Shown in pieces: positions 1 to 39,633 of a stretch of DNA of 64,000 bases. Both the position numbers and the translations under genes were made by a program. The notes under the pieces were generated by a model. That model was given only the letters and a program-made list of their open reading frames with translations, searched no databases and had not been told where the DNA came from. Origin of the DNA: a virus. Its lineage: Duplodnaviria; Heunggongvirae; Uroviricota; Caudoviricetes. The stretch's first letter is position 1. The number at the start of each line of letters is the position of its first letter. The stretch lies in the IMG/VR virus record IMGVR_UViG_3300023371_000005; one strand, written 5' to 3'.

Positions 1-19
1 TCAATTCCGCCAGTTTCCC
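1..19 (-). tRNA. 5' part of a tRNA truncated by the window edge (Leu-type D arm)
   Basis: Minus strand reads GGGAAACTGGCGGAATTGA, like the intact Leu tRNA at 9243-9328. Confidence 0.6.
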
Positions 20-28
20 AAATTTATA

Positions 29-646
29 AACCTGATAAGTTTGCTGACCTTCGTCATACTCCCTATAACCTTCAACCATATTCAATCACCGGGGAGACAA
101 GTCTGAGCCTTCGGGAGCGACCCTAAGCTTCTTGCCCCAGTAGTTCTGACACACCAGAGGCGGCCTTTCCTACCCTATCCCGCAGAGGACTGATTGCCTC
201 TAACTTTCACTCGCCATTCAGAATTGTTTAAGTCTATTAAACCATACTATCTAAACAGCCCAATCTTTCTTCTCGTCGTTGCGATAGAGCTACTCGTACC
301 CTGACCTTACCTTATAGCCGGATTACTCCGACATCAACGCAGACTTCCTTATTGGTGTACCTTGGTCTGGAACAGTCACCAGCTAATCCCTAACAAGGCT
401 TATTCCCCACGGGGGCGTCTATTGCGGAAGCGATAAGACGGTATTTTTGATTGCGGTTATCTTTGCACTCCTCTCCATCCAGGCCCTCCCTTTGGAGGCG
501 GCTCTCTTATGTCACCACAAGAGAATCTACCTATTACCGGCTATCGTCGGTAAGATTGCTTTTCGGACTCCTGGTACCCACAGGCAGGATGAGGATCTCG
601 GCACGATGGTATTCGTTCTTCACCGAGTTGCAAACTTATCAAGGTT
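29..646 (-). ncRNA. Large structured ncRNA, ROOL-like
   Basis: ~16-bp closing helix (630-646 AACCTTGATAAGTTTGC with 29-44 GCAAACTTATCAGGTT), 618 nt, no credible ORF, inside a tRNA array. ROOL rather than GOLLD is judged from size and recalled 3' motifs only. Confidence 0.65.
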
Positions 647-716
647 CATGACAGTCATTAGTCGAAATCGCACTCACCAGGGTTATTCACCGGAGGGTTT
701 CTGTCAGGAGTGCTTC

Positions 717-794
717 AAGGCTCACTTTTTTCTCATACAGTTGGAGCGAGTTGCAGTCGCAAATTTTATGAATAAGAATTGCTGTTTGAGCCTT
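717..794 (-). ncRNA. Wrapper W1 enclosing a Cys(GCA) anticodon arm
   Basis: AAGGCTC-AA-ACAGCAA...GCGA-CTGCAAC-TCGC...GAGCCTT-G. Confidence 0.75.
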
Positions 795-802
795 ATATTT
801 AT

Positions 803-831
803 ATTATAACAAATTTTTTTTGAAAAGTCAA
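803..831 (-). promoter_or_regulatory. Sigma-A-type promoter driving W1 and the ROOL-like RNA
   Basis: TTGACT-17-TATAAT. Near-identical AT-rich promoters at 2002-2030, 2829-2857, 8001-8029, 9758-9785, 10060-10088, 10520-10548, 17133-17161 and others. Confidence 0.85.
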
Positions 832-1135
832 ATTTTTGGTGAAGGGTCATTATTCCCGTTGCCCCTTCGGCCGGTCGCGCAGAACACATTTCGGTTTTTG
901 GCCAGGTTGACCGCAAACCTGCCTCATGTGTTATTACACCAAAGGTCCGCCGTACGCATCGCACCACTCATTATAGGATGGCTACTTTCAAAGCCCACCT
1001 TTGAGGTTTTTCAGAGATTTATACTTGGTTCCCATCCAAGAACTCCTACTTTTGGCAACTCATAGGTTCGACACATTTTCGCATTTCTGGGGCAGCGGCC
1101 GATTAGGAACGTAACGCCATTATCCACTATGAGTT

Positions 1136-1209
1136 TGGCTCCCGCTGATGGACTCGAACCACCAAATGCAGAGTCAGAGTCTGCCGTTTTGCCATTAGAC
1201 TAAGCGGGA
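1136..1209 (-). tRNA. tRNA-Gln(CTG)
   Basis: Cloverleaf, GCAGA-CT CTG AC-TCTGC, CCA. Confidence 0.95.
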
Positions 1210-1388: not shown

Positions 1389-1396
1389 ATATAAAC

Positions 1397-1505
1397 AAGG
1401 CACTTGAAGTCTATTGTACTACCGATTGTACTATTTTCTAAAATGGCTAGAAAAATGGGACTTGAACCCACAACACATAGAATGTGTAATTGCTGTATGT
1501 GCCTT
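1397..1505 (-). ncRNA. Wrapper W3 enclosing a circularly permuted Trp-like tRNA (possible UCA anticodon)
   Basis: 3' half (TCTAT, T arm, TTTTCTA-G-CCA) precedes 5' half (TAGAAAA, D arm, ATAGA-CTTCAA); all four stems pair. Confidence 0.8.
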
Positions 1506-7509: not shown

Positions 7510-7784
7510 ATATGTGGCGCCGGTTGCCAGCGCCTTTGGGTGGACCAGGGTCTTTCGACCAGCCCAGGATTGCAGATGATATTCGCGACTATCATTTTAA
7601 CGGGCCTGCTCATTTGTTTTTCTCGCCCGGTTGGTTATAGGTAACACTCTTAAACCACCGCTTTACGTCCCTTACTCGTGCTGCGGCCGCACGCAACCTG
7701 TATTTCTTAGCCCAGTTTAGGCAAAGGTTTCGCCCCGGTATTTCCAGTTTTTTCTGGTTTTCCTTCTCCTGGTGGCTTACCATC

Positions 7785-7964: not shown

Positions 7965-8200
7965 ATTTCATTTACCTCTCTTTCTTTATCTTACATAAAT
8001 ATTATAACATATTTTTTTATAAAAATCAAGAAAGATTTTTTAGTTAGAATTGGCGCTAGCAACCAATATTGACGGCATCTTAGGTACCGACGCATAATGA
8101 AGACCATGCATTGAAGCCTACAACTGTTGTACTCGCACCGTTGTCGCGCCTGGTGTATTCTTGTCGATCCCACCTAGGAACCAGGCTCACCGTGAGCCAA

Positions 8201-9574: not shown

Positions 9575-9808
9575 ATATGTGTTGTAAGGTGAGAACATGA
9601 CAGTGAGTCGATATACTATCAGCTATTCTTCCCATTCCGTGAGAGGTTCTCAAAATACATTTTTCTGCCGATGTTCCTCGCCCCAGGACTTCGCTGATAG
9701 ACGGCCTGGGCACTTCACAAAGGGATACTCTTTGTATTTCCTTTACCTTACATATATATTATAACATATTTTTTTTGAAAATCAAATATGTTATATTTAC
9801 TTAGCTTC

Positions 9809-9990
9809 AAGACGGAGTTTTTTCGATCTTACGCTGCTCTACCAATCTAAGCTACACCCTTCATATCAGGGAACCGAAGTTCCCCTTAGTAGTCACCTAC
9901 GCCACCTTGCCAGGTGAGGGAAGGGTGGTTGGACTCGAACCAACGACCTGCGGCACCACAAGCTAATCTTTGAATCGCTGTTACCGTCTT
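9809..9990 (-). ncRNA. Wrapper W8 enclosing a circularly permuted tRNA-His(GTG)
   Basis: 3' half 9920-9961 precedes 5' half 9832-9862; perfect 8-bp GAAGGGTG/CACCCTTC acceptor. Confidence 0.8.
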
Positions 9991-10102
9991 TTATGGAAAA
10001 GGTTGTGTATGGAGAAAGAAAGTGAACCGTGCATTTCGCTTTCTTTACCTTACATATATATTATAACATATTTTTTTTTGAAAGTCAAAAAGAATTTTTG
10101 AC

Positions 10103-10474: not shown

Positions 10475-10571
10475 AGTATCATTTCCTTTCTCAATCGTCT
10501 TTCTTTATCTTACATAAATATTATAACATATTTTTTTATAAAAATCAAGAAAGATTTTTTATCTAATTTTG

Positions 10572-10775: not shown

Positions 10776-11009
10776 TGAGAAAAACCCCCTTTTTCAATTT
10801 TATTTGGGAGGCAATGGGATATCGGCACTACCTCCAAAACTCAATTTACGAGTTTGATTTTCTCTAAAATATTTTAGATTCATAAGATAATCTCTTATCT
10901 TGTATATATATTATAACAAATTTTTTATAAAAAATCAAATTTGTCACAATTAGCGAAGTAATATTTTTGAAAAGTCTGTGAGATAAATTGGGCGTTTCCG
11001 CCCAAAGTA

Positions 11010-17072: not shown

Positions 17073-17162
17073 CTTATACCTTTCAAAATTTTTTTATTTC
17101 TTGTGTAAGGATTTCCTTTACCTTACATATATATTATATAATATTTTTTTTGAAAAATCAAA

Positions 17163-18758: not shown

Positions 18759-18858
18759 TTGCTTTTTACCTCTTTTTCATATCTTGTATATATATTATAC
18801 AAAATATTTTATAAAAAATCAAGTAAGCTCCTCTGCTCCAAGCAGAGGAGCCTTATGA

Positions 18859-20915: not shown

Positions 20916-21141
20916 AGTGAGTACAAGGTGGATTCACGCACCACCTCTTGAATTCTCGCGGCTAACCTCCCTAATTTCTGTGGCGCTACGGTTGCCTTAG
21001 CGCGGGGACGATGCCCCAGGGTTTTCACCCCTCTACAGCTCATTACAGCGTGTAGTAGGCCGGGTTTTGAAGTTTTTCCTTACTTGTAAGGTTTTCTTCC
21101 TTTACCTTACATATATATTATATCATATTTTTTTTGAAAAA

Positions 21142-22308
21142 TCAATTAGCGACCGTATTGCTGCGAATATGGCTTGCTGCGACGGCCGCAGCATCCCTCA
21201 GTTCAACATACATCTTCCGCAGGTTGTTGTATTCCTCTTCATTTGCCTTGAGCTGGCGCTGCAGGATATCGACATCAGATTCCAGTCGACGAGTCTGGTC
21301 TTCCCAATACTCGGCATTGGCATGGTTGCTGGCAGACTGCTCATATAGAGCATCGTAAGAGTTCTTCATTCTCTTGGCTTCTTCCTCAGCCGCCAGAGCT
21401 TCATGATGGAACTGCTTTGCCAGGTCGACATTGTCAGAAGCGATGCGCTTCCAACGCTCTACCTCTTCCTGCAGGCTCTGAATTACGGCTTCGTAATTGA
21501 TGATGGTGCTCTTCTGATCATTGGCCACCTGAGCCCACTCTTCATTCTTATTTCGCAGCCACTCAACCTGCTTTTCCAGTTCGTCGATTCGACAGTCACG
21601 CTCCATCAGTTCCAGATGCAGGTCTTCGGCTTCGGTTCGAGCAGTGTCTCGTTCATTGCGAGCATTCACCACCATATCAGCCAGTTCGGAAGTGGCGCGG
21701 ACGGCGATGTCATTGGTCTTATCCTTCTCAGCCATGCGAGCGCGCAGACGCTCATTTTCAGCGATGGTGATATTCCGATCAGTCTTCAGCTCCTGGATTT
21801 CAGTAGCCATCTCGGCAATGGTGCGGTTGGCTTCATCAACTTCCTGACCCAGGTCTTCACGGAACTCCTGCAGATTGGCGATGGTTTGCTTAGCAGTATC
21901 CAGCTCATATGCAGCATCTTCAGCTCGCTTTTCCGCACGGTCAACCTGCATCCGCAGACCACGGTTTTCGCGCTGAAGCTCTTCAATCTGCTTGTGGAGC
22001 ATATCCCAGCCCATCTCACGCAGAGTTGCGTTCTTCTTGGCGATTACCAGAGCATCTTCTGCATCCTTGCGAGTGGTTTCACTGGCCTCGATCTGGTCAT
22101 TCAGCTCCTGAATCAGAGCTGCTTGCTGATCTCGTTTGGTAATCAGGTCCAGAATCTTGCCCTGATCTTCAGCGTGCCAGCCTCTATACAGAGCCAGGTC
22201 ATGGCGCATATCTTCCATTTCTTTCAGCATGGAAGAATACTTGTCAGCGGTCAGCATCACAGTAGGCTTCTTAAAATTTACTTTTACCTTCATTGAGTGT
22301 TCCTCCAT
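21142..22308 (-). CDS. Long coiled-coil protein
   Basis: 388 aa, E/K/Q/A/L heptad-rich; own promoter at about 22.35 kb. Confidence 0.75.
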   Translation of the reverse strand: MEEHSMKVKVNFKKPTVMLTADKYSSMLKEMEDMRHDLALYRGWHAEDQGKILDLITKRDQQAALIQELNDQIEASETTRKDAEDALVIAKKNATLREMGWDMLHKQIEELQRENRGLRMQVDRAEKRAEDAAYELDTAKQTIANLQEFREDLGQEVDEANRTIAEMATEIQELKTDRNITIAENERLRARMAEKDKTNDIAVRATSELADMVVNARNERDTARTEAEDLHLELMERDCRIDELEKQVEWLRNKNEEWAQVANDQKSTIINYEAVIQSLQEEVERWKRIASDNVDLAKQFHHEALAAEEEAKRMKNSYDALYEQSASNHANAEYWEDQTRRLESDVDILQRQLKANEEEYNNLRKMYVELRDAAAVAASHIRSNTVAN

Positions 22309-22422
22309 AACTTTGTTTCATTTCTCTCTCAACCTTACATATATATTATATCATATTTTTTTATAAAAATCAAAAAAGCCTCTCTGCGCTAGGAGGCTTC
22401 TTATTATAACGATAATCAGATA

Positions 22423-23486: not shown

Positions 23487-23593
23487 AACTTTTACCAGCC
23501 CTTTCCTCTCTCTTTATCTTACATAAATATTATATCATATTTTTTTATAAAAATCAAAAAACCTCCTGTGAACCAGGAGGTTTGATAATTGTG

Positions 23594-25833: not shown

Positions 25834-26268
25834 TTATACCTCCTTCCGGCATACTCCGTAGATGTCTACGGGTTCGTTGTCATAGTCGCAGAGGAAACAA
25901 TTCAGAATCTCATCGTAGAAACAATGAGCACAGAGTTCACAACTGCGCTGGTCGTCGGGGATTTTGAGGATACAATCCCGACGAATAATCTTGGCGAGAG
26001 CAGGATCTTGCTTCTTTACATCACTCCAACGCTCCCAGTGATACTCGGGGTTGTCGGTGATGTCGCCGGTAATATCGTAAATGCGGCCTTCGATTTCAGT
26101 TGCGAAGTGATTGGCCACCTGGTCATACATGATGGGGCAGTGGAGCGATCCGAAGCGATGCCGCAGAATAACTGTGAAGTGAAAGCACATTCCATTGGAA
26201 AATGCATTTTCTGCGCCCAAGTCTCGGAACTGCTTGATGAAATCGAGGATCAGTTCTTGTTTAGTCAT
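25834..26268 (-). CDS. Hypothetical protein
   Basis: GGAGG RBS. Confidence 0.7.
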   Translation of the reverse strand: MTKQELILDFIKQFRDLGAENAFSNGMCFHFTVILRHRFGSLHCPIMYDQVANHFATEIEGRIYDITGDITDNPEYHWERWSDVKKQDPALAKIIRRDCILKIPDDQRSCELCAHCFYDEILNCFLCDYDNEPVDIYGVCRKEV

Positions 26269-26273
26269 AACGA

Positions 26274-26525
26274 TTACCTCCGCTGAATACCGGTTTTGAG
26301 GATGGGTAAAGAAGGAGAACGATGGAGAACCCAGTATGCTTCATCCAGTTTCCCTTGGTTTTCCTTAGCAGTGCCGGTGATAGGATAAGTAATGCTCTGG
26401 CCTTTGTATTCGATACTGACGACGGCATACTCGGGATTGATAGCTTCACAGATTTCAATGGATTCAATGAAGTCCATGTTGAAATCCCGTCCCGCAATAC
26501 GAATGAAATTACGATAACGATTCAT
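26274..26525 (-). CDS. Hypothetical protein
   Basis: GGAGG RBS. Confidence 0.7.
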   Translation of the reverse strand: MNRYRNFIRIAGRDFNMDFIESIEICEAINPEYAVVSIEYKGQSITYPITGTAKENQGKLDEAYWVLHRSPSLPILKTGIQRR

Positions 26526-26526
26526 A

Positions 26527-26796
26527 TTAGAAACCTCCTGCGAAATTCAAACAGATGTGATGAAGGTGACGATTTTCGATCCAAGCGAAAGATACGGATG
26601 CGCCGGAATTATCGGGGTAGGGATCAACGATCTCATTCCACTGGAAGAGAGGATCTTCATATTCCAAATTTTCAAAGTATTCTTCAACGACATGAAGGGC
26701 GTCTTTGGTATATTCTTTGGAAGACACAAGATGGTCTACCTGCTCGCAGATGTTATATACTTCATCTTCAATAACAGACGGGGTGAAGCCTACCAT
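26527..26796 (-). CDS. Hypothetical protein
   Basis: GGAGG RBS. Confidence 0.7.
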   Translation of the reverse strand: MVGFTPSVIEDEVYNICEQVDHLVSSKEYTKDALHVVEEYFENLEYEDPLFQWNEIVDPYPDNSGASVSFAWIENRHLHHICLNFAGGF

Positions 26797-27070
26797 AATT
26801 CTTTTACCTCCTGGCGTATTATTCAGTCTTACTCAGTAAGATTTTGTATTACGCTCGGTACACGGAATTTTACTTTTCTGACGGAGCGCATTACCTTTTC
26901 TTTTACTATCTTTTCCTTTACTTTACATATATATTATATCATAAAATTTTTACAAAATCAATTAAGATACAATTAATTAGAATATAAATGTAATACGTTG
27001 TAATACAGTGTAGGACAACGTAATACAATTTTTCTTTCCTAATTTTCAATAATCATACGGAGGTGATTAT

Positions 27071-27208
27071 ATGACCGTTATTACTGTAAGACTTGATGAT
27101 ATTGAAAAGCAATTATTACAGCAATATGCAGAAGATGAAGATCTATCTGTGTCATAGATTATAAGACGTCTAATAAAAGAATTTTTAGACGAGAAAGTTA
27201 GAAACTAA
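27071..27208 (+). CDS. Ribbon-helix-helix (CopG-like) DNA-binding protein (one in-frame TAG)
   Basis: MTVITVRLDD...DLSVS[TAG]IIRRLIKEF; Gln gives the typical SVSQIIR helix; GGAGG RBS. Confidence 0.75.
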
Positions 27209-27223
27209 AAAGGAGCTTGTGAA

Positions 27224-27403
27224 ATGCCAAATTCAAAAGTAAAAATTGTATACTCTTTAAGAATCCATATTGGTTTACAACAATTAGGATTTTCTTATAT
27301 AACAGAAATGAAGAATCCCAAGAATCCGCATCTGAATTGTTGGGTGTATCAAGAGACTCCCGCACTTCTGAAAGCGTTTGACTCCTTGGTAAAGGAGGGG
27401 TAA
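27224..27403 (+). CDS. 59-aa hypothetical protein
   Basis: AGGAG RBS; stop abuts the next start. Confidence 0.65.
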   Translation: MPNSKVKIVYSLRIHIGLQQLGFSYITEMKNPKNPHLNCWVYQETPALLKAFDSLVKEG

Positions 27404-27792
27404 TGATGAGCGCTATTGAAACATTTGTGGTTCACAAAGAATGGTTAGATAGTATTGCTGGATTACCCTGTGAGACTCAGGATAGAATCATTGCGGAGTT
27501 CGTTCGATATGGCTGTGGACTGGACCCTGCGCACCCTGAGGACGCAATCGCGCAGTCTTTTGTGAATATTTTGAAAAATAGAATTGATTATAGTAAGGAT
27601 CAATATGCAAAGAAAGTTGCAATGGGAAAAACTGCTGGGGCTAAGAAGAAAATTGATGACAGACAAATTTATGAGTTGGCGCAAGAAGGAAAAACTGCAA
27701 CTGAAATTGCAACAATTTTGAATATATCTAAATCTTCTGTTGACCACAGTGATGGTTGGAGAAAGAGAAGAGAAAACGAATTTGTATTTTGA
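27403..27792 (+). CDS. Replication-initiator/replisome-organiser-like protein with C-terminal HTH
   Basis: N-terminus (HKEWLDSI..LP...IIAEFVRYG) resembles phage replisome-organiser domains from recall; HTH ATEIATILNISKSSV. Confidence 0.55.
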   Translation: MMSAIETFVVHKEWLDSIAGLPCETQDRIIAEFVRYGCGLDPAHPEDAIAQSFVNILKNRIDYSKDQYAKKVAMGKTAGAKKKIDDRQIYELAQEGKTATEIATILNISKSSVDHSDGWRKRRENEFVF

Positions 27793-27793
27793 T

Positions 27794-27955
27794 TTGCAAA
27801 ATTTGTTGCAAAGTTGCAAAAATTGTAACAATATATTCGTGCAAAGTTTGCATTTTGCATTGCATTGTACAAATCTAACTTATAACTTACAAATGCAACA
27901 ATTTTGCAAATTGAATTGCAATTTTGCAACTTAATTTTTGCAATAAATTGCAAAA
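27794..27955. repeat. AT-rich TTGCAA/TGCA array (candidate iterons)
   Basis: About 13 TGCA cores (8 full TTGCAA) in ~160 bp, followed by a GC hairpin at 27961-27983. Confidence 0.7.
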
Positions 27956-28005
27956 ATTTTAGGGGACCCCTCCGGGGATCCCCATCATAAAGGAGATAAT
28001 GGAGA

Positions 28006-28233
28006 ATGATATATCAAAGACCGAAAGGTAATGTAAGATTTGCTTATGGTAGATTTGATGATTTACCATATGGAGCCGAAGAAGTAAAGATATTTATGGT
28101 ACCTGGGGATCCAGTATTATATGTAGTACCAATTGGAGATATTCCATATGCGTATGAGAAAAATGAACCAGAAATTCCAATGTCAGATAGGCAGTGTGAG
28201 GAGTTATTGGATTATTTTAGAGAGTACGTATAA
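28006..28233 (+). CDS. Hypothetical protein
   Basis: GGAG RBS. Confidence 0.65.
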   Translation: MIYQRPKGNVRFAYGRFDDLPYGAEEVKIFMVPGDPVLYVVPIGDIPYAYEKNEPEIPMSDRQCEELLDYFREYV

Positions 28234-28543
28234 TCTTTATTTGATTTTATAAAAAAATATTGTTATAATTATTATAGTATAAAAGAAAAGGTGGAAAAGG
28301 TTATATGATGCTTGTAGATGAAGGTTATCTTCATGACAATACTATCGTGCGCATCGGGGAAGAGATGGGAATCTTTAGAAAACCCGATGAAAGCAAAGTA
28401 GAATATGTCATGAGGGTCATTCAAGAACTTCAATTCAAAAAGCCCTAAGTAGGGGTATTCAAAAAATGAATTGAAAAAATGAAATGAAAACCGAGGAACA
28501 AAATAAAAAATGAAATGAAAATCCGATTGAAAGGAAAAGTAAA

Positions 28544-28999
28544 ATGGTTTTTAGCTATAATAATTTAATGTCTGCCGCAAAGTCTGGTCAGAGACTTGGT
28601 AAGTGGAAGGATTTGCCGGTCTTTTCTTGTGATAGAATGGGACTGGCGCAAAAAGGCAATGGTGCTTATTATGTCGTCTATGATGATGACAATGCTTTCG
28701 TGAAGAAGAGCGGTTCTATGTGGTTCAGATTTGGTTATCTGGATAAGGAAGGCTCTGTTCATGAGGACACTAAGCGAGAATATTTCCCCATCCGCACAGA
28801 GAAGGACAAGGAAGTCTTCTATTATAATGAGAAGAAAGCTACAGTGGAGTTTGCGCCTGTACCGACCGTACATACTACTGCTTCTTCTGGAACTACGACT
28901 GCGGATGTGAAACTGGAGATTGACGTTGAGGGAACCTTGAAGAAGGCGAGGGAAATGACTATTGAAGATTTGCTCGCAGGATTCAACTACGGACTCTAA
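28544..28999 (+). CDS. Hypothetical protein
   Basis: 151 aa; terminator at 29093-29118. Confidence 0.7.
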   Translation: MVFSYNNLMSAAKSGQRLGKWKDLPVFSCDRMGLAQKGNGAYYVVYDDDNAFVKKSGSMWFRFGYLDKEGSVHEDTKREYFPIRTEKDKEVFYYNEKKATVEFAPVPTVHTTASSGTTTADVKLEIDVEGTLKKAREMTIEDLLAGFNYGL

Positions 29000-29092
29000 G
29001 TGGACTCGCTTCTGGAATAAAGTATTTCCGATCGTTGAGTGGTTAGAAGATTTGGGGGAGCTTATTGTGCTCTTGGATGATATATTTGATTA

Positions 29093-29118
29093 AGGAGGAC
29101 TTCGGTCCTCCTTTTTTT
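29093..29118 (+). terminator. Intrinsic terminator
   Basis: AAGGAGGAC-TTCG-GTCCTCC followed by T7. Confidence 0.75.
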
Positions 29119-29331
29119 GTTGCTTTTGGAAGAGAATTGTGAGATTGTTCTGGCCGATCGGCCCCTGGACTATCCGATCGCTTTTCCTCGTCACCGTTAC
29201 CGTTGGGGCATAAAAAAATCCACCCTCATTTTCAGAGGGTGGGTTCTAAAATTATCTTAGCGTAGCTCTTCTCTTGGTAGTTGTAGCTTAGTCAGAAATC
29301 ATCTTATGAGAATTTCTTCACAACGAGAATC

Positions 29332-29814
29332 TTACTTCATAATTTGAGCCAAAAATTCCTTTAGAGCTTCATCATCGCTCTTGGCGTGAATGGTGGCGGA
29401 ACGCTTCTTAGGATTTAGACCAACCAGCTTATCCTCGGGGATAGCATCGATTGCGGTCTTCAGTTCCTTCATTGCGCCCATCAGGGCGAAAGTCTGATCC
29501 AGGGCCTCAACCAGAGTGTCCAGGTCATCGTCAGTGATTTCCATCTCATCCATGGCGGTGTTGCCAGTCAGATCAGCGTAATCACGGAACAGGTCGACCA
29601 TCTTCAGACCCAGATCCTTTTTCTTTGCGGCCAGCTCCACCTTGGCGACACGCTCTGCCTCGGCCTTACGGGCGGCCTCCTGCTCAGCACAGAAGTCAGA
29701 CATTGCGGCGTTCATGGCATCTGCCATGGCCTGACCAATTGCATTGATATCCTGACCATTGCGCAACTGGTCCAGGAAATAGTTCTTATCATAAACCATT
29801 GGTATATACCTCAC
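29332..29814 (-). CDS. Hypothetical protein
   Basis: Own promoter at 29.84-29.87 kb, GAGG RBS. Confidence 0.75.
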   Translation of the reverse strand: MRYIPMVYDKNYFLDQLRNGQDINAIGQAMADAMNAAMSDFCAEQEAARKAEAERVAKVELAAKKKDLGLKMVDLFRDYADLTGNTAMDEMEITDDDLDTLVEALDQTFALMGAMKELKTAIDAIPEDKLVGLNPKKRSATIHAKSDDEALKEFLAQIMK

Positions 29815-30388
29815 ATTTCTTATTTATTGTACTTATATTATATCAAAAAATTTTATAAAAATCAAATCCGATCGGCGCTTTCTGCGTTCTCCGAACGCAG
29901 ATTGGATTTTTTATAAAAAAAATGTTATAATAAAAAAAAAGAACATTTTTACCGATCGGGACTTTCAATTCAATGTTTCGCCATATGAGAATTCCCGATC
30001 GGCCCTCCGGGGTGGGGTGCTAGATTTCGGGAGAACGGGGCATATGCGGAAGTCGCTAGAAGTAGCAGAAAAATTCCATATGGGGTATACCGATCGGAAA
30101 ATCGGGCCCTGACCTCCGTTCAGGGCCCGTTGAACCACACCCTTATTATACCACAAGTCGAGGTATTTGTCAACCCCTAAATCAAAAAAAAATCGACTGA
30201 TTTCTCAGTCGATTTCTAAACAGCCATCCCAATGGAAGTGCGCCGTCACATGGAGGCTTGCACCGCACTCGGGGCAGATTGTGTAGGAAGTGCCGGTGAC
30301 AAAATCGCCGTTGTCTTCCAGATCGTCGAACTCGTCCACATCAAAGGACGCACCGCAGTAAGGACATTCACCCATTTTTCATACCTCC

Positions 30389-30577
30389 TTAGCAATCATA
30401 GGTGTAGCAACCTTCGTAGGGGTCGAAGCCGAAGTCATCGTCAATGTCTTCGGGTTCGTAGTCATCGTCGTACTCACAGGGGGCGGGAGTGCCATCATCG
30501 GGATAGTGGCAACGGGGGTATTCTTCGTCCTCGTCCTTCCAGTAGTAACCGCAATTAGAATCAGCACAGGTAGCCAT
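30389..30577 (-). CDS. Small Cys/Asp-rich protein
   Basis: AGGAGG RBS, own promoter. Confidence 0.65.
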   Translation of the reverse strand: MATCADSNCGYYWKDEDEEYPRCHYPDDGTPAPCEYDDDYEPEDIDDDFGFDPYEGCYTYDC

Positions 30578-30654
30578 TTTGTTTTCCTCCTTGTTTGATT
30601 TTCTTTATTATACCATGTCGGGGGGCATTTGTCAAGCCCCCCGACAACTTTTTT

Positions 30655-31269
30655 TTAGAAAGGCAGTTCGTCTGCCAGTCCGGCAACCTCATTCCATTCC
30701 TCGACAATCGCAGGAATATCGATGAAAGGACGGCTTGCCATGTAGTCCGCCATGTGGACACATCTGTCCACATTGGTAAAGGGTCTGTCCTCTTTCTCGG
30801 TAGACCACTGACCCATGTGAGCGCAGACAGCGTTCAGAAGCAGAAAATGGGGTTCGCCGTAACCAGTGACCAGACAGTAATCACGGAAAGCAGTCGCCGC
30901 ATTTCTGGCGTGATTCTTGTACTCGGCCTTGTCGAAACCATCCAGACCATACTTGACAGTATCGTGAATGATACAGGCGACAATGACGAAATCCTTGTAT
31001 TCTTCCTTCATGTATGCGTAAGAACTCATGCGGAGCAGTTCTTCGGCGAACATGACAACCGCCTTGGTGTGGCGAACCAGACCGCCAACGCCCTGGGACA
31101 TCTTGGGGTGATACTTGCCAGAACTGGAAGCACCGTCTGTCCAGAAGTAGTCGGGAACTCGGTCGATCAGGTATCCCTTGACCGCCATGCGGAGATCCTC
31201 GTCCAGGATGAGGGACAGTTCCCTCTCAAAAAGCTTGATGTTCTTCATGGGTATCAATTCCTCTCTCAT
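30655..31269 (-). CDS. HD-domain phosphohydrolase
   Basis: GKYHP...GGLVRHT, IHD, HMGQW, HMAD. Confidence 0.85.
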   Translation of the reverse strand: MREELIPMKNIKLFERELSLILDEDLRMAVKGYLIDRVPDYFWTDGASSSGKYHPKMSQGVGGLVRHTKAVVMFAEELLRMSSYAYMKEEYKDFVIVACIIHDTVKYGLDGFDKAEYKNHARNAATAFRDYCLVTGYGEPHFLLLNAVCAHMGQWSTEKEDRPFTNVDRCVHMADYMASRPFIDIPAIVEEWNEVAGLADELPF

Positions 31270-31295
31270 TTGATGTACTCATTATAGCATAGGAT

Positions 31296-31487
31296 TTAGA
31301 GTTTGTCAAGTACTTTTTTAGAAAATTCTGTGTATTCAATACACATTTTCAAAGTATCTTTTTCAACTGTCACACGCACAGAACTAACAAGGGGATTTTG
31401 TATCATCAGTTCGCCGGCCATTTTCTTGACCTCTGAATAGGGGATACCCTTACCAATTTCAATTCTAGCCATTGTTTTTCCCTCCAT
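31296..31487 (-). CDS. Hypothetical protein
   Basis: Co-oriented small ORF. Confidence 0.5.
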   Translation of the reverse strand: MEGKTMARIEIGKGIPYSEVKKMAGELMIQNPLVSSVRVTVEKDTLKMCIEYTEFSKKVLDKL

Positions 31488-31873
31488 GGTTCTGGGTTAC
31501 CCCAGAACCACAAAATTTTTGCCGTAGTGGTCGTGAACGCCTTCTTCTACATTGTAGGTGATGGACAGTTCATCCATGTAAATGACCTTGGAATCACCAA
31601 AACCGAGTTCTTCCATGGTCTGAAGCTGGCGGAGCAGTTCACTAACAGTAATGCACTTTTTATTCATGGGGGTTACCTCCTCTTGATTTATAATACAATT
31701 ATACCACCGATTCCGGGAAAATCAAGTTGGAGTATTGCACAAAAAATGCGCCCCAAAAATTGTTGGAGTTGGTTATTTTGCCGAAAAACCGGCCCGCGCG
31801 CACGTAAAGGGCCGGCCGAAATTTGTGCAAATTGCACAAAAACGAAGAAAAACCGGGATTTTTCCCGGTTTTT

Positions 31874-32242
31874 CTAACTTTTTGCCTTTCTTTTTGCGAT
31901 TAAAGTCAATTCGTAGGCATTTTCACCAATTTTGAAGCTAATTTGACGAGTTTTGTTGGTGATTTCCACTGAAACGTAGCCTTTTTCCGCTAAAAAGTGG
32001 GCGATTTCCGCAATTACAGCCTCTTTTTCCGGATTTTCGGTGGGTTTTCGTGCGGATTTGGTGGTTTTTGGCGATTTTGTGTCCGCATTAGCGTTTTTCA
32101 TAGCCAGTTTGTGTGCTTCTGGACTCAAATCAAAGTCCATTTGCTCTCCCCTGTCGATGCATTTATCATCGGCAAGAATGGCTTCGGCTTCGCTTCTGGA
32201 ACACTTGAGAGAACGCATGATGCGTTCGATTTGGCTATCCAT
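31874..32242 (-). CDS. Hypothetical protein, paralog of 34932-35288
   Basis: Shared DK.IDRGE motif and C-terminus. Confidence 0.75.
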   Translation of the reverse strand: MDSQIERIMRSLKCSRSEAEAILADDKCIDRGEQMDFDLSPEAHKLAMKNANADTKSPKTTKSARKPTENPEKEAVIAEIAHFLAEKGYVSVEITNKTRQISFKIGENAYELTLIAKRKAKS

Positions 32243-32341
32243 GGTGGTTGCCCCCTTTCCTTACTTAGTATAGCACATTTGGGGGGATTTGTCAAGAGGA
32301 AAGTTTGGGGGAGAATTTCTCCCCCTCTCCCCTCTCTCTGG

Positions 32342-32734
32342 TTAGACCAGAGAGAAGAAAGCCTTTCTCTTGTCCTCGGTTCTCTTGACCTGGCCTGCAT
32401 CAACCATCTGGCGAACCAGAGCGGACATTCTCTGGTTGGTCATGGTGTCAGGCAGGTTGGGAACCTTTTTCAGCAGTTCGGACACGGTGAACAGCTGATT
32501 GGGATTGGCTTCCATCACAGCCAGAACACCGGCCTTGATGGTTGCGTTGGCTTCCTGCTGAGCGGTGGGCTTCTTCTCAGCGGAGTTCTTCTTGGCCAGC
32601 AGTTCCTGCTCGTGGGCGATGAACTCAGCCAGCATGGGGTTGTTGGCGACTTCGGGGATGTTCGCAATCATAGCGAACTTCTGAGCCTTGGTCAGCTTGG
32701 TGGATGCGGAAGCGGAAGAAGTAGTGTTAGCCAT
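32342..32734 (-). CDS. Winged-helix-like DNA-binding protein
   Basis: TVSELLK...TNQRMSALVRQMVDAGQV; close paralog of 35368-35745. Confidence 0.7.
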   Translation of the reverse strand: MANTTSSASASTKLTKAQKFAMIANIPEVANNPMLAEFIAHEQELLAKKNSAEKKPTAQQEANATIKAGVLAVMEANPNQLFTVSELLKKVPNLPDTMTNQRMSALVRQMVDAGQVKRTEDKRKAFFSLV

Positions 32735-33092
32735 AGTATCAATTCCTTTCGGTTTTAGCGACTTGAACCTGTCGATGATTTATTCTGTAAGAGGTGTTCC
32801 TCTTTACATTCTTATTATAGCACATTCGGCTCGGTTTGTCAAGAACTTTTTTTCTTTTTTTTTCTTGACCTTGGAGGGTTGCCCCTCTCTTTTTGTACCC
32901 TCATTGTATCACATCTTGGGCGGTTTGTCAAGAGGTTTTTTCAACTTTTTTTTTCGCTCGGCTCGCTCTGTCCTGCGTTGTTGCCTGTCCCTCACTGACA
33001 AGGGTATTATACCATAGCCAGAAGCGGATTGCAATAGGCAAAGTATACAAAATCGGGAGAAATAATTTGTGCATTTTTTTCGCATTTTCCTC

Positions 33093-33215
33093 TTGACAAA
33101 TTGCTGGGGGTATGGTATAATGGAAATTCTGCCCGGGCACACTCGCGCCCGGGCCGCCGAAATGTCAATTGGTAATTTTGCACAAAAAAGTGAGGGTTGC
33201 CCCTCACTCATTTTT
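33093..33215 (+). promoter_or_regulatory. Promoter/GC-hairpin/terminator unit
   Basis: TTGACA-17-TATAAT, GCCCGGG hairpin, then a terminator-like hairpin; similar units at 36416-36513 and 40570-40667. Confidence 0.7.
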
Positions 33216-33645
33216 GAATGACCGTTTCCAGATTGATTCCGGCGCTGACTTCTTCCCAGTTCTCCACATTGTCAACATGGACAACCTTGTGACAGCCATT
33301 GACCATCATCAGAGAATAGGTTGCGTTCTCATAACCGCACAGAACCTGGACAACCTCTTTGCCGATTGCCATGCCGAAGCCGGCTTCCCATGCCGTACCA
33401 GAGTCGGAATACATACCGAAGTTGAGAACCATGACCACATCACAGTCATGGATGGCTTCAATGTCCATTTCAAAGACACGCTTTGCCCAGTCAGAGTTCG
33501 GCAAGTCCCATGCGTTGGGAACTTCATGCTCCTGGGGTACATGAACCGGATAACCTGCGGAGCGCAGACGAGAGATGGTTTCCTTGTAGACTACCAATTC
33601 AGTAGCATTGAAGAACGGCGAAGCCAGATAGATTTTCTTTTTCAT
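33208..33645 (-). CDS. Nucleoside 2-deoxyribosyltransferase family protein
   Basis: IYLASPFF, DIEAIHDCD, DSGTAWEAG. Confidence 0.85.
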   Translation of the reverse strand: MKKKIYLASPFFNATELVVYKETISRLRSAGYPVHVPQEHEVPNAWDLPNSDWAKRVFEMDIEAIHDCDVVMVLNFGMYSDSGTAWEAGFGMAIGKEVVQVLCGYENATYSLMMVNGCHKVVHVDNVENWEEVSAGINLETVIQK

Positions 33646-33701
33646 AGTGTTCAGTTCCTTTCCTTTTTGTATTCTCATTATACCATGAGAAAAGGCTTTT
33701 G

Positions 33702-34046
33702 TCAAGCCTTTTCTACTCGGTAGAAGAAAAATTTATTGACAATTCTTTTTGCCTTTTTGTCGTGGCAAAAATAAATACTTCCGAACAGATGTGTGGAATC
33801 GTCCATCAATTTGAGATTTTGAATTGCTTCCAATTTCACAGGCTTGCTTACATTGCGGAAGAGTTTCCAGAAGAAAACGAATGGGAAAAGCAGGATTTCC
33901 AGAATAATTTCCAGAATACCAGTGATGAGCAGATAGGGAAGCTGGATGAAGTTCATCCATCTCTGGCCCCACAGTTCTTCGTGAATGAAAGACAGGATAA
34001 TGTATCCGGCAAGAATACCTAATAAGAAATTCAACATTTTACACAC
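33702..34046 (-). CDS. Membrane protein
   Basis: Two TM-like segments, GAGG RBS. Confidence 0.65.
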   Translation of the reverse strand: MCKMLNFLLGILAGYIILSFIHEELWGQRWMNFIQLPYLLITGILEIILEILLFPFVFFWKLFRNVSKPVKLEAIQNLKLMDDSTHLFGSIYFCHDKKAKRIVNKFFFYRVEKA

Positions 34047-34101
34047 CTCATTTGTTTTTCTTTATTATAGCATGAATTGGGGGTTTTGTCAACCCCCAAT
34101 T

Positions 34102-34428
34102 TTACGGAAGTTCATCGGGATAGCAGAAGCATTCCCATGCGATACTCTCCCAAGTTTCCATACACTTGGAAGTGTTGCACAGCCAGATCGTGACAAAGAA
34201 AGTATTGACAACAGGCAGACCAATCATCAAAGCGCACTGGATGAGACTGATGAAAGTCTTTGCCCAGTTCGTAGGCTGTTTGACCCTGACCATGCCCTTG
34301 GCCTTGCACTCCTTAAAAGTGGGAATCATAGCCAGACTGGCGAACACGAACAGATACAGGAAAGCCAGAATTGCGCTTGCGACATAGACCCAGAAGAAAA
34401 TTTCTAACATAACATTTACCTCACTCAT
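34102..34428 (-). CDS. Membrane protein
   Basis: TM-like segments, own promoter. Confidence 0.65.
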   Translation of the reverse strand: MSEVNVMLEIFFWVYVASAILAFLYLFVFASLAMIPTFKECKAKGMVRVKQPTNWAKTFISLIQCALMIGLPVVNTFFVTIWLCNTSKCMETWESIAWECFCYPDELP

Positions 34429-34482
34429 TTAATTTTCTTTATTATAACATAGGTTTGCGAATTTGTCAAGAGTTATTTTGTA

Positions 34483-34695
34483 TCAAAGGGACATTTTCTG
34501 TCCCCAGATACAACGCTCAAAGGCAGGCTTGTAGACATTGTTCCAAATGAACTCCATCTCGTTGTAAGCTTCTCTGTCCTCCACAATCATTGCGTAGAAC
34601 TGAACTGCTCCGAACGCCTGATGAATCCACAGTTCTTTGCCGTCCTTCTGGCACTGAGCCAAAAGCCAATCGATGTGCTGTTTCAGTTTATCCAT
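34483..34695 (-). CDS. Hypothetical protein
   Basis: Start set at the ATG after AGGAGG. Confidence 0.7.
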   Translation of the reverse strand: MDKLKQHIDWLLAQCQKDGKELWIHQAFGAVQFYAMIVEDREAYNEMEFIWNNVYKPAFERCIWGQKMSL

Positions 34696-34931
34696 GGTGA
34701 TTACCTCCTTGATTTGTACCCTAATTATAGCATAGGTTTCGGGATTTGTCAAGGGGTTTTGCAAAAATAATTTTTGCAAGAAAAATTGCTGAAATAGGGG
34801 GTTAGTAGCGAAATGCCGGGCGCCACACTCGTCAGCGCCCGGCCATTATACCACATTCTTTTGAAAATGTCAAGCATTATTTTTTCGTCAAAATGCACAA
34901 AAAATCTGTCCGCGCTGGGCGGACAGATTTC

Positions 34932-35288
34932 TCAGGAGCGGGGACACGCAAGGGTGACTTTGTACTTCGTGCCGTTGTGGGTGAACAGGAACTCACGCTC
35001 GGCATTGGTGACATTGAACTCGGTGATTCCCAGTCCATTCAGACCTTCCATCATTGCGGAACACAGCTCTGCCTTTTCCGGCTTGGCTTTCTTCTCTCTT
35101 TTGGTGGTGGTCTGCTTGCGGTCTGCCTGTCGTGCTTTCTTTGCGCCCGCTTCCAGTTCGGGGTCAAGCTCAAACAACTTTTCGCCCCTGTCGATTCGCT
35201 TGTCTTCGTCCATCAGTTCGATGGCTTCCTCACGGCTGATGTTCAGCGACTTCATCAGCTTCTGGATTTTCTCTTCCATCGGGGTCAT
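34932..35288 (-). CDS. Hypothetical protein, paralog of 31874-32242
   Basis: EDKRIDRGEKLF. Confidence 0.75.
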   Translation of the reverse strand: MTPMEEKIQKLMKSLNISREEAIELMDEDKRIDRGEKLFELDPELEAGAKKARQADRKQTTTKREKKAKPEKAELCSAMMEGLNGLGITEFNVTNAEREFLFTHNGTKYKVTLACPRS

Positions 35289-35367
35289 CTCCTTTCTGTA
35301 CTAAGTATAGCACAGATTGCTGGATTTGTCAAGGGGAAATTTTGGGGGAGTTTCCTCCCCCATCGGG

Positions 35368-35745
35368 TTACGCAATGGCGAAGAACGCCTTGCGCTTGTC
35401 CTCGGAGCGGACAACCTGACCCGCATCGACCATCTGACGGACGAGTGCGCTCATGCGCTGATTGGTCATGGTGTCGGGCAGACCGGGCACTTCCTTGAGC
35501 AGTTCGGACACGGTGCGCTTCTTGCCGTCAGCCAGAACCTCCAGAACGGCGGTCTTGATTACGGCATTTGCCTCCTGCTGGGCAGTGGGCTTCTTGTCGG
35601 CGGAGTTCTTCTTTGCCAGAAGCTCAACTTCGTGGGCGATGAACTCGGACAGCATGGGGTCAGCCTTGACGGCGGGCAGTTCAGCCAGAATGGCGAACTT
35701 CTGAGCCTTGGTCAGACGAGCGGAAGAAGAAGTAGTGTTAGCCAT
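35368..35745 (-). CDS. Winged-helix-like DNA-binding protein
   Basis: Close paralog of 32342-32734 (MANTTSSS start). Confidence 0.7.
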   Translation of the reverse strand: MANTTSSSARLTKAQKFAILAELPAVKADPMLSEFIAHEVELLAKKNSADKKPTAQQEANAVIKTAVLEVLADGKKRTVSELLKEVPGLPDTMTNQRMSALVRQMVDAGQVVRSEDKRKAFFAIA

Positions 35746-36516
35746 AGTATCGATCTCCAATCTTGCGGTAGGTCGCAACCCAAATTTGATTTATCTGTAA
35801 GAGGTGTTCCTCTTTACATTCTTATTGTATCACATCTTGAGCCAGTTGTCAAGAGGTTTTTTGAATTTTTTTTTGGCTTTCACTCCACCTAGTCCCTAAT
35901 ACAGCCTCGGGATTGGTTCACATTTATATTCCGCACAACGGAGCGACCGTGCGGTCGAGGACTTTGTCGTCATGGTCTGACACGACTCTCGTGGGTCTTG
36001 TCTCAACGACTTCTGCCATGCTTCCCTCTTTTGTACCCTTATTATAACACATCTTGGGGAGTTTGTCAAGAGGTTTTTTTTCAGATTTCCTTCTGTTCGG
36101 TCATCTTGTGGTCACTTGCTCCGCAAGCCCTACCGCCTCCGACCACGGCTAACCTCTTGACTTCTCTTACATTGTATCACAACTTGGGGGATTTGTCAAG
36201 GGGTTTCTTGAAGTTTCTTCAAGAAAGTTGCGTGCCGGAAGGTTGGGTCGTACACAGCCTCTGCCAACAGTTCGACGCCTAGCGTGGGTTTCCCAACTCC
36301 CGAGGCGTTCCCTCCCCTTGACACCAATACTATACCACATCTGCCCCCAGATTGCAATTGGCAAAATACACAAAATCGGGAAAAATAATTATTTATTATT
36401 TGTGCAATTTTCCTCTTGACAAATTGGCTGGCGGTGTGGTATAATAAAATTTCGGCGCCCATCAACCGTGGGCGCCGCGCCGAAAAAGCCACCCCAAAAA
36501 TGGGGTGGCTTTCGTA

Positions 36517-36945: not shown

Positions 36946-37044
36946 AGGTATCAGTTCCTTTCCTTTGTTGTACCAACATTATAACATGGATTAGTTGGTT
37001 TGTCAAGAGGTTTTTGAAAAATTTTTTTTAGGGGATGGGGCGGA

Positions 37045-37725: not shown

Positions 37726-37784
37726 TTCCTTTCCTTTGATGAACTTATTGTATCACAAAATAGCCGGTTTGTCAAGGGATTTTT

Positions 37785-39067: not shown

Positions 39068-39142
39068 AGTATCAATTCCTTTCAGTTCTCTTTTGTTGTA
39101 ATTATTGTATCATAGGTTTTCGGATTTGTCAAGAGGAAATTC

Positions 39143-39583: not shown

Positions 39584-39633
39584 TTGATTCAGTTCCTTTC
39601 CTTTTTTGTACCTTAATTATAACACGGAATACC

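What the first reader, a model, noticed from the sequence alone, without database searches (positions are those of the whole stretch)
29..646. ~620-nt ROOL-like giant RNA inside the tRNA array
Seen: a ~16-bp helix joins 630-646 to 29-44, the interior is hairpin-rich with no credible ORF, and it lies downstream of promoter 803-831 and wrapper W1. Established: ROOL (~580 nt) and GOLLD (~800 nt) RNAs occur near tRNAs in Firmicutes phages and are reported to form RNA-only multimeric cages of unknown function. Inference: co-transcription with the wrapped tRNA-like RNAs hints at a shared role in storing or protecting RNA cargo.
Basis: partly seen in the sequence, partly recalled or inferred. Interest (0 to 1): 0.72.

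Follow-up and report, generated by a model that had tools for sequence, protein, structure and literature searches.

The report
ROOL cage RNA in phage tRNA array
The stretch is a complete gene for a ROOL RNA, a known large phage non-coding RNA that builds RNA-only cages and whose job is unknown, sitting with its own promoter inside a roughly 39-tRNA array of an uncultivated gut- or rumen-type phage, so it is a clear but ordinary new member of a known family.

Summary
Confirmed. Window 651→26 (minus strand) matches the Rfam ROOL model RF03087 end to end, at 323 bits against a threshold of 99 (E 1e-73).

- **Closing helix:** It has 16 pairs and one bulged U.
- **Fold support:** I aligned it with 14 other phage ROOLs from IMG/VR. 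The consensus fold has 129 pairs, 105 of them with compensatory changes. The window keeps 123 of 128.
- **Cage bridge:** the loop-junction complementarity that cryo-EM showed to be a bridge between cage subunits is present (GGUG/CACC) and covaries.
- **Transcription unit:** a near-consensus promoter (831→803), one of 13 copies of a phage promoter cassette, starts a transcript that reads a small Y-RNA-like "wrapper" W1, a conserved 55-nt leader, then ROOL.
- **3' end:** six nt after ROOL a conserved tRNA-Leu-like RNA begins. RNase P probably cuts the ROOL 3' end there (inferred).
- **Position in the array:** an identical IMG/VR contig shows ten more tRNAs downstream, including a CUA suppressor. 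ROOL therefore lies inside the array.

Cage formation is inferred from homology, and its subunit number is open. Function is unknown, and the "RNA cargo" idea is untested. Expression could not be checked.

Verdict: a new member of a known kind, of modest interest.

The parts
803..831 (-). Sigma-70/SigA-type promoter with extended -10 (TTGACT, 17 nt, TGtTATAAT). The predicted transcription start is near 796.
   Evidence: 11 of 12 positions, TG present. It is one of 13 copies of a 56-nt promoter cassette, all on the minus strand within 1-26 kb (family D1). Similar promoters stand upstream of many ROOL homologues.
717..793 (-). W1: a small 'wrapper' RNA with a terminal stem GGCUCA/UGAGCC and an ACAGCAA box. 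It is the first product of the transcription unit and lies upstream of ROOL.
Evidence: Sequence read. The box lies 134 nt before the ROOL 5' end. Sub-threshold YrlA hits elsewhere in the array fit that reading.
652..706 (-). Conserved 5' leader directly before ROOL, with GAAUA and UUUCGACU invariant in three phages. It lies outside the Rfam model and its role is unknown.
   Evidence: homology with L010/L030 runs to 699 and with L006 to 679. A fold from three sequences was inconclusive.
26..651 (-). ROOL RNA gene, 626 nt, full length.
   Evidence: Rfam RF03087: 323.2 bits against a gathering score of 99.1, E 1.3e-73, model 1-574/574. The window keeps 123 of 128 consensus pairs.
630..646 (-). 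P1 5' strand. It pairs with 29-44 to form the closing helix.
   Evidence: All 11 scored P1 pairs show compensatory changes among homologues (helix 1).
29..44 (-). P1 3' strand.
560..581 (-). 22-nt insertion relative to the Rfam consensus, in the P3 junction. L010, L006 and L012 share it.
   Evidence: Insert columns. The shared sequence is visible in alignment A1, columns 70-100.
512..515 (-). GUGA tetraloop capping the 10-bp hairpin 525-502. By order along the chain it is probably L5 of the published P2-L5 tetraloop/receptor contact.
   Evidence: G137, G139 and A140 are invariant. The naming is my inference from the CASP16 description (10.1101/2025.04.15.649049).
377..380 (-). GGUG in the hairpin loop CUGGUGA. 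It is complementary to CACC at 354-357. In solved ROOLs this pairing is a kissing-loop bridge between cage subunits.
   Evidence: 80% paired; CG:7/UA:6 at the third pair; slid controls 18-50%. Published as bridge B4 (PMC12286853) and as J11/9-L11' (PMC12990946).
354..357 (-). CACC in the junction, partner of the GGUG loop.
405..415 (-). Short apical hairpin, CCCC-CGU-GGGG. It is probably the P10 (Wang numbering) / P7 (Kretsch numbering) element whose length sets the hexamer or octamer state.
   Evidence: Homologues fall into a short and a long class. The role comes from PMC12990946. The assignment is by position only.
215..284 (-). Variable linker of about 70 nt, with no conserved sequence or length. 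It corresponds to the disordered loop inside published cages.
   Evidence: Alignment A1, columns 410-490. The Rfam model treats it as a 55-column unpaired loop plus an insert. Described in PMC12286853.
143..170 (-). 28-nt insertion in the variable side branch of the long 3' arm.
   Evidence: Insert columns. The length is highly variable among homologues (columns 540-620).
116..120 (-). UCGCU loop of the long 3' hairpin, the family consensus loop. In solved ROOLs this loop kisses its own copy across the two half-shells.
   Evidence: Seven of 15 sequences have UCGCU, five have UAGCU and three differ. Role from PMC12286853 (bridge B6) and PMC12990946 (L15-L15'').
1..19 (-). Start of a trailing tRNA-Leu-like RNA that begins 6 nt after ROOL. 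It has an acceptor stem UGGGAAA/UUUCCCA followed by CCA, a Leu-type D arm, a T arm and a large insert in the anticodon region. It continues beyond the window edge as L055:583-736.
   Evidence: L055 is 100% identical to window 1-601. Fold. The element is conserved after ROOL in L010 and L022, with acceptor-stem covariation. Rfam calls the L010 copy a tRNA at 33.3 bits, starting 7 nt after ROOL.

Best explanation
Window 651→26 (minus strand) is a functional gene for a ROOL RNA of an uncultivated large phage of Firmicutes type.

**Transcription (inferred from sequence).** Host RNA polymerase starts at the phage promoter 831→803. It reads through a small Y-RNA-like RNA (W1) and a conserved 55-nt leader, then the 626-nt ROOL. 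It continues into a tRNA-Leu-like RNA and further tRNAs.

**3' end (inferred).** RNase P cutting at the 5' end of the abutting tRNA-like RNA most likely makes the ROOL 3' end, six nt after P1.

**Fold (shown by model match and covariation).** The RNA folds into the family's 16-helix architecture with several multi-helix junctions.

**Assembly (inferred from homology to solved ROOLs).** Copies then join into a closed, hollow, RNA-only cage of six or eight subunits. The expected contacts are the GGUG/CACC loop-junction kissing contact within a half-shell, GNRA-type loops docking into helices, and the UCGCU loop across half-shells. The ~70-nt variable linker would point inward.

**Role.** What the cage does is unknown. 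Its placement under an early-type promoter, among about 39 tRNAs and tRNA mimics, points to a role in the phage's takeover or protection of the translation/RNA machinery.
For: - **Family match:** full-length RF03087 hit, 323.2 bits against GA 99.1, E 1.3e-73, and no other large-RNA family matches here.
- **Homologues:** 14 homologues from IMG/VR phage contigs are all full-length ROOL hits of 265-341 bits.
- **Covariation:** an independent MAFFT + RNAalifold consensus has 129 pairs, 105 with compensatory changes. Cells paired are 92.5%, against 69.4% when shuffled and 39-43% when slid; 0 of 500 shuffles reach the observed value.
- **The window itself:** it keeps 123 of 128 consensus pairs.
- **Cage bridge:** the kissing-loop complementarity is present and covaries.
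- **Promoter:** 11 of 12 positions with TG. It belongs to a 13-copy phage cassette, and like promoters precede many homologues. In five of them the predicted start falls at the ROOL 5' end.
- **tRNA context:** 29 tRNAs lie upstream and 10 downstream, all on the same strand. Of the 55 ROOL loci tallied (a few of them duplicates), 36 hold tRNAs, all on the ROOL strand.
- **tRNA abutment:** a tRNA or tRNA-like RNA starts 5-9 nt after ROOL in L002, L008 and L010/L030, and in the window it starts 6 nt after.
- **Cage formation and its contacts:** PMC12286853, PMC12990946.
Against: - There are no expression data.
- The window's trailing tRNA-like RNA has no Rfam hit, and its fold is not significantly better than shuffles (z -1.8). 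Only homology to L010 and L022 supports it.
- A tRNA within 15 nt of ROOL is seen in a minority of loci, so tRNA-guided end formation is not general.
- The UCGCU loop can form only two Watson-Crick pairs with itself, whereas a 4-bp kiss is reported for the E. faecalis ROOL.
- The apical hairpin is of the short class, so the subunit number cannot be read from sequence.
- I did not compare it directly with the solved ROOL sequences.
- Part of the sequence invariance in my homologue set is circular. The set was fished with an 18-nt ROOL motif.
Confidence: 0.9

Rival explanations
1. ROOL here works together with the neighbouring wrapper/Y-RNA-like and tRNA-like RNAs. The cage would store, shield or deliver these RNAs or tRNAs, perhaps with the phage's Ro60-like protein, and co-transcription would reflect one functional module.
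For: W1 and ROOL share one promoter. A conserved tRNA-Leu-like RNA follows ROOL at 6-7 nt in three distinct loci. ACAGCAA boxes lie 24-74 nt after ROOL in L010/L030, L022, L024/L059 and L011, and upstream of it in L006. That is far more than the roughly 2% expected per 320-nt flank. A review raises 'inhibited storage' of an embedded tRNA for GOLLD (PMC12990946).
Against: These arrays are packed with tRNAs and small RNAs, so adjacency is expected without any joint function. Many ROOLs have a promoter starting right at their 5' end with no wrapper, and 19 of the 55 loci tallied show no tRNA at all. Solved cages were empty apart from their own linker (PMC12286853). No base complementarity between ROOL and W1 was looked for or found.
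Confidence: 0.12
2. The sequence is a ROOL relic: recognisable by homology but no longer expressed or assembled.
For: There are no expression data. It has two insertions relative to the model and a few non-canonical pairs.
Against: It has full model coverage and 96% of consensus pairs intact. Its score lies within the range of the other phage ROOLs, 265-341 bits. It has a near-perfect promoter. The sequence is identical in two other IMG/VR contigs from other samples (L055 and L041). Close relatives share the 22-nt insertion in the P3 junction.
Confidence: 0.03
3. The region is protein-coding: the 120-aa plus-strand ORF 447-809 or the 66-aa ORF 451-651.
For: The ORFs exist.
Against: There is no Pfam match even at E 0.1. 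The 120-aa ORF runs antisense through the promoter and W1. The pattern of change among homologues is paired-base compensation, not codon-wise. All surrounding genes are on the minus strand.
Confidence: 0.01

Closest known systems
ROOL RNA (Rfam RF03087; Weinberg et al. 2017, PMC5737381; solved as octamer or hexamer cages: env-120, E. faecalis, L. salivarius; PMC12286853, PMC12990946)
   Same: Full-length model match, the same helices and junctions with covariation, the same conserved motifs, the kissing-loop complementarity, a variable inner linker, and a phage setting beside co-oriented tRNAs.
   Different: - It is 626 nt, against a family mean of 581 nt. The extra length comes from a 22-nt insert in the P3 junction and a 28-nt insert in the 3' arm.
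- Its G+C is 48%, while the Rfam consensus sequence reads A+U-rich.
- A conserved 55-nt leader and a conserved trailing tRNA-Leu-like RNA flank it in its subclade.
- It shares its promoter with a Y-RNA-like small RNA.
- Its oligomer state is unknown.
GOLLD RNA (Rfam RF02032, the accession printed)
   Same: A large ornate phage RNA in tRNA arrays that forms RNA-only cages. A related contig (L006) carries both a ROOL and a GOLLD in one array.
   Different: A different sequence and fold. The window has no GOLLD match at gathering threshold.
tRNA-punctuated processing of polycistronic transcripts by RNase P and RNase Z (general bacterial and organellar principle; my own knowledge)
   Same: tRNA or tRNA-like RNAs abut ROOL ends within 0-9 nt in several phages. 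They would supply ready-made cleavage sites.
   Different: This has not been shown for ROOL. It is seen in a minority of loci. The window's 5' end has no abutting tRNA.

Membership tests
ROOL RNA (RF03087) | Covariance-model score at or above Rfam's gathering threshold (99.1 bits) | tested here: met
   323.2 bits, E 1.3e-73.
ROOL RNA (RF03087) | Complete architecture: closing helix P1 enclosing about 16 paired regions and several multi-helix junctions | tested here: met
   Model 1-574/574 matched with no truncation. The window keeps 123 of 128 pairs of an independently derived consensus fold.
ROOL RNA (RF03087) | Helices supported by compensatory base changes among homologues | tested here: met
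   105 of 129 pairs covary; 0 of 500 shuffles reach the observed values; slid controls give 39-43% paired against 92.5%.
ROOL RNA (RF03087) | Conserved loop-junction complementarity (a pseudoknot in the 2017 model, an inter-subunit kissing loop in the cryo-EM structures) | tested here: met
   GGUG (380-377) with CACC (357-354). 80% of cells paired, CG:7/UA:6 covariation.
ROOL RNA (RF03087) | Family-conserved nucleotides (AAUAGA, UAUAAG, GAGUAGC, UUCUGAAUG, GUGAAAGUU, CUCAGAC, GAAUA, CGAAGG) | tested here: met
   All are present and lie in invariant or nearly invariant columns. UUCUGAAUG and GUGAAAGUU were the bait for collecting homologues, so their invariance in my set is circular. The Rfam alignment shows them independently.
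ROOL RNA (RF03087) | Unconserved linker of variable length at the fixed position that faces the cage interior | tested here: met
   Window 215-284. Length and sequence vary freely among the 15 sequences.
ROOL RNA (RF03087) | Phage or prophage context, often beside tRNAs | tested here: met
   PHROG virion and other phage families in the window. 29 + 10 co-oriented tRNAs. 36 of the 55 ROOL loci tallied hold tRNAs, none on the opposite strand.
ROOL RNA (RF03087) | Self-assembly into a closed homo-oligomeric RNA cage | not testable with these tools
   Inferred from PMC12286853 and PMC12990946. It needs in vitro transcription plus mass photometry or cryo-EM.
ROOL RNA (RF03087) | Made as a discrete, abundant RNA | not testable with these tools
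GOLLD RNA (RF02032) | Covariance-model score at or above the gathering threshold | tested here: not met
   No GOLLD hit in the window at gathering threshold, nor in 1-1200 at E up to 1.

The most novel reading that the evidence does not exclude
In this phage lineage ROOL is not a lone gene. It is the centre of a conserved three-part RNA unit: a small Y-RNA-like RNA or leader, then ROOL, then a tRNA-Leu-like RNA with a large anticodon-region insert. The unit is made as one precursor and cut by RNase P. The cage would act together with these tRNA mimics, and perhaps with the phage's Ro60-like protein, to hold or shield RNA during infection.
Probability: 0.12. Interest if true: 0.7.

Novelty: new member of a known kind. 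Interest (0 to 1): 0.3.

Why it matters
ROOL is one of the largest bacterial and phage non-coding RNAs. Since 2025 it has been known to build RNA-only cages larger than a ribosome, yet nobody knows what it is for.

This copy adds no new kind of thing, but it offers a well-defined setting in which to ask the question. It has a mapped promoter and a predicted precursor with processing sites. Its neighbours are about 39 tRNAs, tRNA mimics and a suppressor tRNA, in a phage that recodes TAG. It also has a set of close relatives for comparison, including a 402-kb phage contig with two ROOL copies and a contig with both ROOL and GOLLD.

If the recurrent ROOL + tRNA-like pairing reflects function, it would be a first concrete lead to a substrate or partner.

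Tried and rejected
- **Whole genome:** none is held for this window.
- **Named phages:** a nucleotide search of window 1-1200 against INPHARED found nothing.
- **Rfam structure line:** I projected it onto the window and got 27 non-canonical pairs out of 151. The cause was a one-base register shift in a few helices of the model's structure line (the long 3' hairpin and the second closing helix), not a defect of the sequence. The RNAalifold consensus gives the right register, 123 of 128 canonical. I therefore used the RNAalifold structure for the counts.
- **Trailing region:** an Rfam search of L055:560-1120 at E up to 10 gave only noise. The fold z-score was -1.8.
- **5' leader:** a consensus fold from three sequences gave too little data to judge.
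- **Recoding:** reading TAG or TGA as sense in 25-47 kb did not open long frames there. That region seems to hold short early genes. It has no bearing on ROOL.
- **Coding reading:** the plus-strand ORFs have no family match.
- **Not done:** direct comparison with the solved ROOL sequences (env-120, E. faecalis, L. salivarius), since no tool here serves RNA chains. My helix names follow their order along the chain as described in the papers and are not verified against the deposited models.

Full report
**What is there.** A scan of the whole window against Rfam 15 gives one large-RNA hit: ROOL (RF03087) on the minus strand, 651→26. It scores 323.2 bits against a gathering score of 99.1, with E 1.3e-73, and covers model positions 1-574 of 574 without truncation (alignment). 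RNA 6-22 (window 646-630) pairs with RNA 608-623 (window 44-29) as 4 bp, a bulged U, then 12 bp (sequence). It is the family's closing helix P1. The minus strand carries only a 33-aa ORF. The 120-aa and 66-aa plus-strand ORFs have no Pfam match even at E 0.1.

**Homologues and covariation.** I fished IMG/VR with an 18-nt ROOL motif and obtained 59 loci. nhmmer with the window's RNA ranked them. Two contigs from other samples (L055, L041) are 100% identical to window 1-601 and 1-354. Fourteen further full-length homologues, 65-78% identical at best, are each full-length ROOL hits of 265-341 bits. A MAFFT alignment of the 15, folded by RNAalifold without reference to Rfam, gives 129 pairs, of which 105 show compensatory changes.

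| Measure | Value |
|---|---|
| Cells paired, observed | 92.5% |
| Cells paired, 3' letters shuffled | 69.4% |
| Cells paired, partners slid by 1-3 columns | 39-43% |
| Shuffles reaching the observed value, any measure | 0 of 500 |

The window obeys 123 of 128 of these pairs. One caveat applies. The two motifs used as bait are invariant by construction. The covariation elsewhere is not affected.

**A technical wrinkle.** I projected the Rfam structure line onto the window and got 27 non-canonical pairs out of 151. These cluster in a few helices where the model's structure line is one base out of register. Infernal flags only negatively scoring mismatches, which is why its own NC line shows few. 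The RNAalifold register is the right one.

**Anatomy, in window coordinates on the minus strand.** Helix names follow the order along the chain in the published descriptions. They are my assignment and are not checked against the deposited models.
- P1: 645-630 with 44-29.
- P2: 627-597.
- P3: 595-587 with 476-469. This junction holds a 22-nt insert (581-560) shared with L010, L006 and L012.
- Three hairpins inside P3: 553-534 (loop GAUA), 525-502 (loop GUGA) and 498-485.
- Second closing helix: 467-443 with 86-57.
- P8/P9: 437-426 with 348-306.
- Short apical hairpin: 415-405.
- Long hairpin: 399-359, with loop CUGGUGA.
- GUAA-capped hairpin: 332-317.
- Helix 297-285 with 214-203, enclosing the unconserved ~70-nt linker (284-215).
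- Hairpin 201-184.
- Long 3' arm: 183-89, with a 28-nt insert (170-143) and loop UCGCU (120-116).
- GAAG-capped hairpin: 56-45.

**Cage determinants.** Cryo-EM showed that ROOLs form closed D4 octamers (env-120, E. faecalis) or hexamers (L. salivarius). Kissing loops and A-minor contacts hold them together, and a disordered linker sits inside (PMC12286853, PMC12990946; CASP16 description in 10.1101/2025.04.15.649049).
- The best conserved bridge is a hairpin loop pairing with a junction of the neighbouring chain. In the window it is GGUG (380-377) with CACC (357-354). Across the 15 sequences it is 80% paired, with CG:7/UA:6 at its third pair, against 18-50% in slid controls.
- GNRA-type loops (GUGA, GUAA) are in place.
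- The self-kissing loop of the 3' arm is UCGCU. This is the family consensus and allows a GC/GC core. Five relatives have the fully palindromic UAGCU.
- The apical hairpin, whose length is reported to decide between hexamer and octamer, is of the short class here: 4 bp plus a triloop.

I therefore infer cage formation with fair confidence but leave the subunit number open.

**Transcription unit.**
- **Promoter.** It lies at 831→803 and reads TTGACT, 17 nt, TG-n-TATAAT. It is one of 13 copies of a 56-nt cassette, all on the minus strand in the first 26 kb. The copies stand before tRNA blocks and before protein genes. ROOL thus belongs to that promoter class, read by the host polymerase.
- **W1.** The transcript would begin with W1 (793→717; stem GGCUCA/UGAGCC, ACAGCAA box). 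An earlier follow-up read W1 as a Y-RNA-like handle RNA (e1-5428110). Sub-threshold YrlA hits elsewhere in the array fit this.
- **Leader.** A 55-nt leader follows (706→652). It is conserved in L010/L030 and L006 and lies outside the Rfam model. A three-sequence fold is inconclusive.
- **Relatives.** Many have a similar promoter. In five, its predicted start falls at the ROOL 5' end.

**The 3' side.** The window ends 25 nt after ROOL, but L055 continues it. Six nt after ROOL an acceptor-like strand begins (window 19→13). It closes with UUUCCCA-CCA about 150 nt later, around a Leu-type D arm, a large insert and a T arm. The same element follows ROOL in L010 and L022, with compensatory changes in the acceptor stem. 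Rfam calls the L010 copy a tRNA at 33.3 bits, starting 7 nt after ROOL.

Normal tRNAs or long tRNA-likes start 5-9 nt after ROOL in L002 and L008. They abut its 5' end in L002 and L036. RNase P is therefore the likely maker of the ROOL 3' end here. This is an inference. Tight abutment is seen in a minority of loci, and the window's copy has no Rfam hit of its own. No intrinsic terminator follows ROOL.

**Wider context.** Upstream lie 29 tRNAs. Downstream in L055 lie a PD-(D/E)XK nuclease gene and ten more tRNAs, including one with anticodon CUA. That matches the TAG-to-Gln recoding of late genes noted earlier (e1-5428121). Of the 55 ROOL loci tallied (a few of them duplicates), 36 hold tRNAs, and every one of those tRNAs is on the ROOL strand. 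PHROG families and a virion protein 43% identical to large Enterococcus phages mark the window as a large Firmicutes-type phage. It may come from gut or rumen: the closest records include human faecal phages.

**Verdict.** This is a new, typical member of a known family, in the family's known kind of place. The idea that ROOL and the wrapper RNAs share a cargo-related role remains a speculation. The recurrent adjacency is a lead, not evidence. Expression, ends and assembly remain to be shown experimentally.

Noticed in passing
L055:583-736 (continues window 19→1, minus strand): A tRNA-Leu-like RNA with a ~70-nt insert in the anticodon region and a 3' CCA. It is conserved directly after ROOL in three distinct loci (window/L055, L010/L030, L022), with acceptor-stem covariation. 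The L010 and L022 copies carry the ACAGCAA box, while the window copy has AUCCGCAAU at that place.
   Followed up: partly
L055:4633-4707: A suppressor-type tRNA with anticodon CUA, which reads UAG, about 4 kb downstream of ROOL in the same array. It fits the TAG-to-Gln recoding noted for the late genes of this phage.
   Followed up: partly
window 777-832, 1976-2031, 2803-2858, 7975-8030, 9732-9787, 10034-10089, 10494-10549, 10884-10939, 17107-17162, 18768-18823, 21091-21146, 22319-22374, 23503-23558: Thirteen copies of a 56-nt promoter cassette on the minus strand (TTGAYW, A/T-rich 17-nt spacer, TGnTATAAT, then ATATGTAAGG). Stretches of 47-50 nt are nearly identical in other IMG/VR phage contigs (L010, L022, L030, L041, L055).
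   Followed up: partly
L022:7982-8394 and L030:6246-6837 (both from IMGVR_UViG_3300032167_000002, 402 kb): One 402-kb phage contig carries two different ROOL copies, 78% and 76% identical to the window's. Each is followed by the tRNA-Leu-like element.
   Followed up: partly
L006:7558-8229 and L006:12269-12780: A related phage contig carries both a ROOL (296 bits) and a GOLLD (152.8 bits, just above the gathering score of 150) 4 kb apart in one tRNA array.
   Followed up: no
window 9804-9972 and 1394-1505 (minus strand): Sub-threshold matches to the Y-RNA-like family YrlA (43.7 and 31.7 bits; gathering score 69) between tRNAs. They fit the tRNA-mimic small RNAs described by other follow-ups.
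   Followed up: no
L055:740-1080: About 340 nt of G+C-rich, ORF-free, hairpin-dense sequence between the trailing tRNA-like RNA and a PD-(D/E)XK nuclease gene (L055:1103-1474; PDDEXK_5, E 4e-16). It has no Rfam match and may be a further structured RNA.
   Followed up: no
window 7531-7566 (minus strand): A DUF3800-XI RNA motif hit above threshold (47.6 bits against 37.8), next to tRNA-Glu.
   Followed up: no
window 26000-44000: About 18 kb with few long frames in code 11. Reading TAG or TGA as sense does not open long frames either. Overlapping frames of similar length occur on both strands, with a strong T-over-A skew. These are probably many short early genes plus repeated non-coding modules.
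   Followed up: partly
L055:1 and L041:1 (window 601 and 354): Two independent IMG/VR contigs of the same phage both begin inside ROOL, so assemblies from two samples broke within this gene.
   Followed up: no
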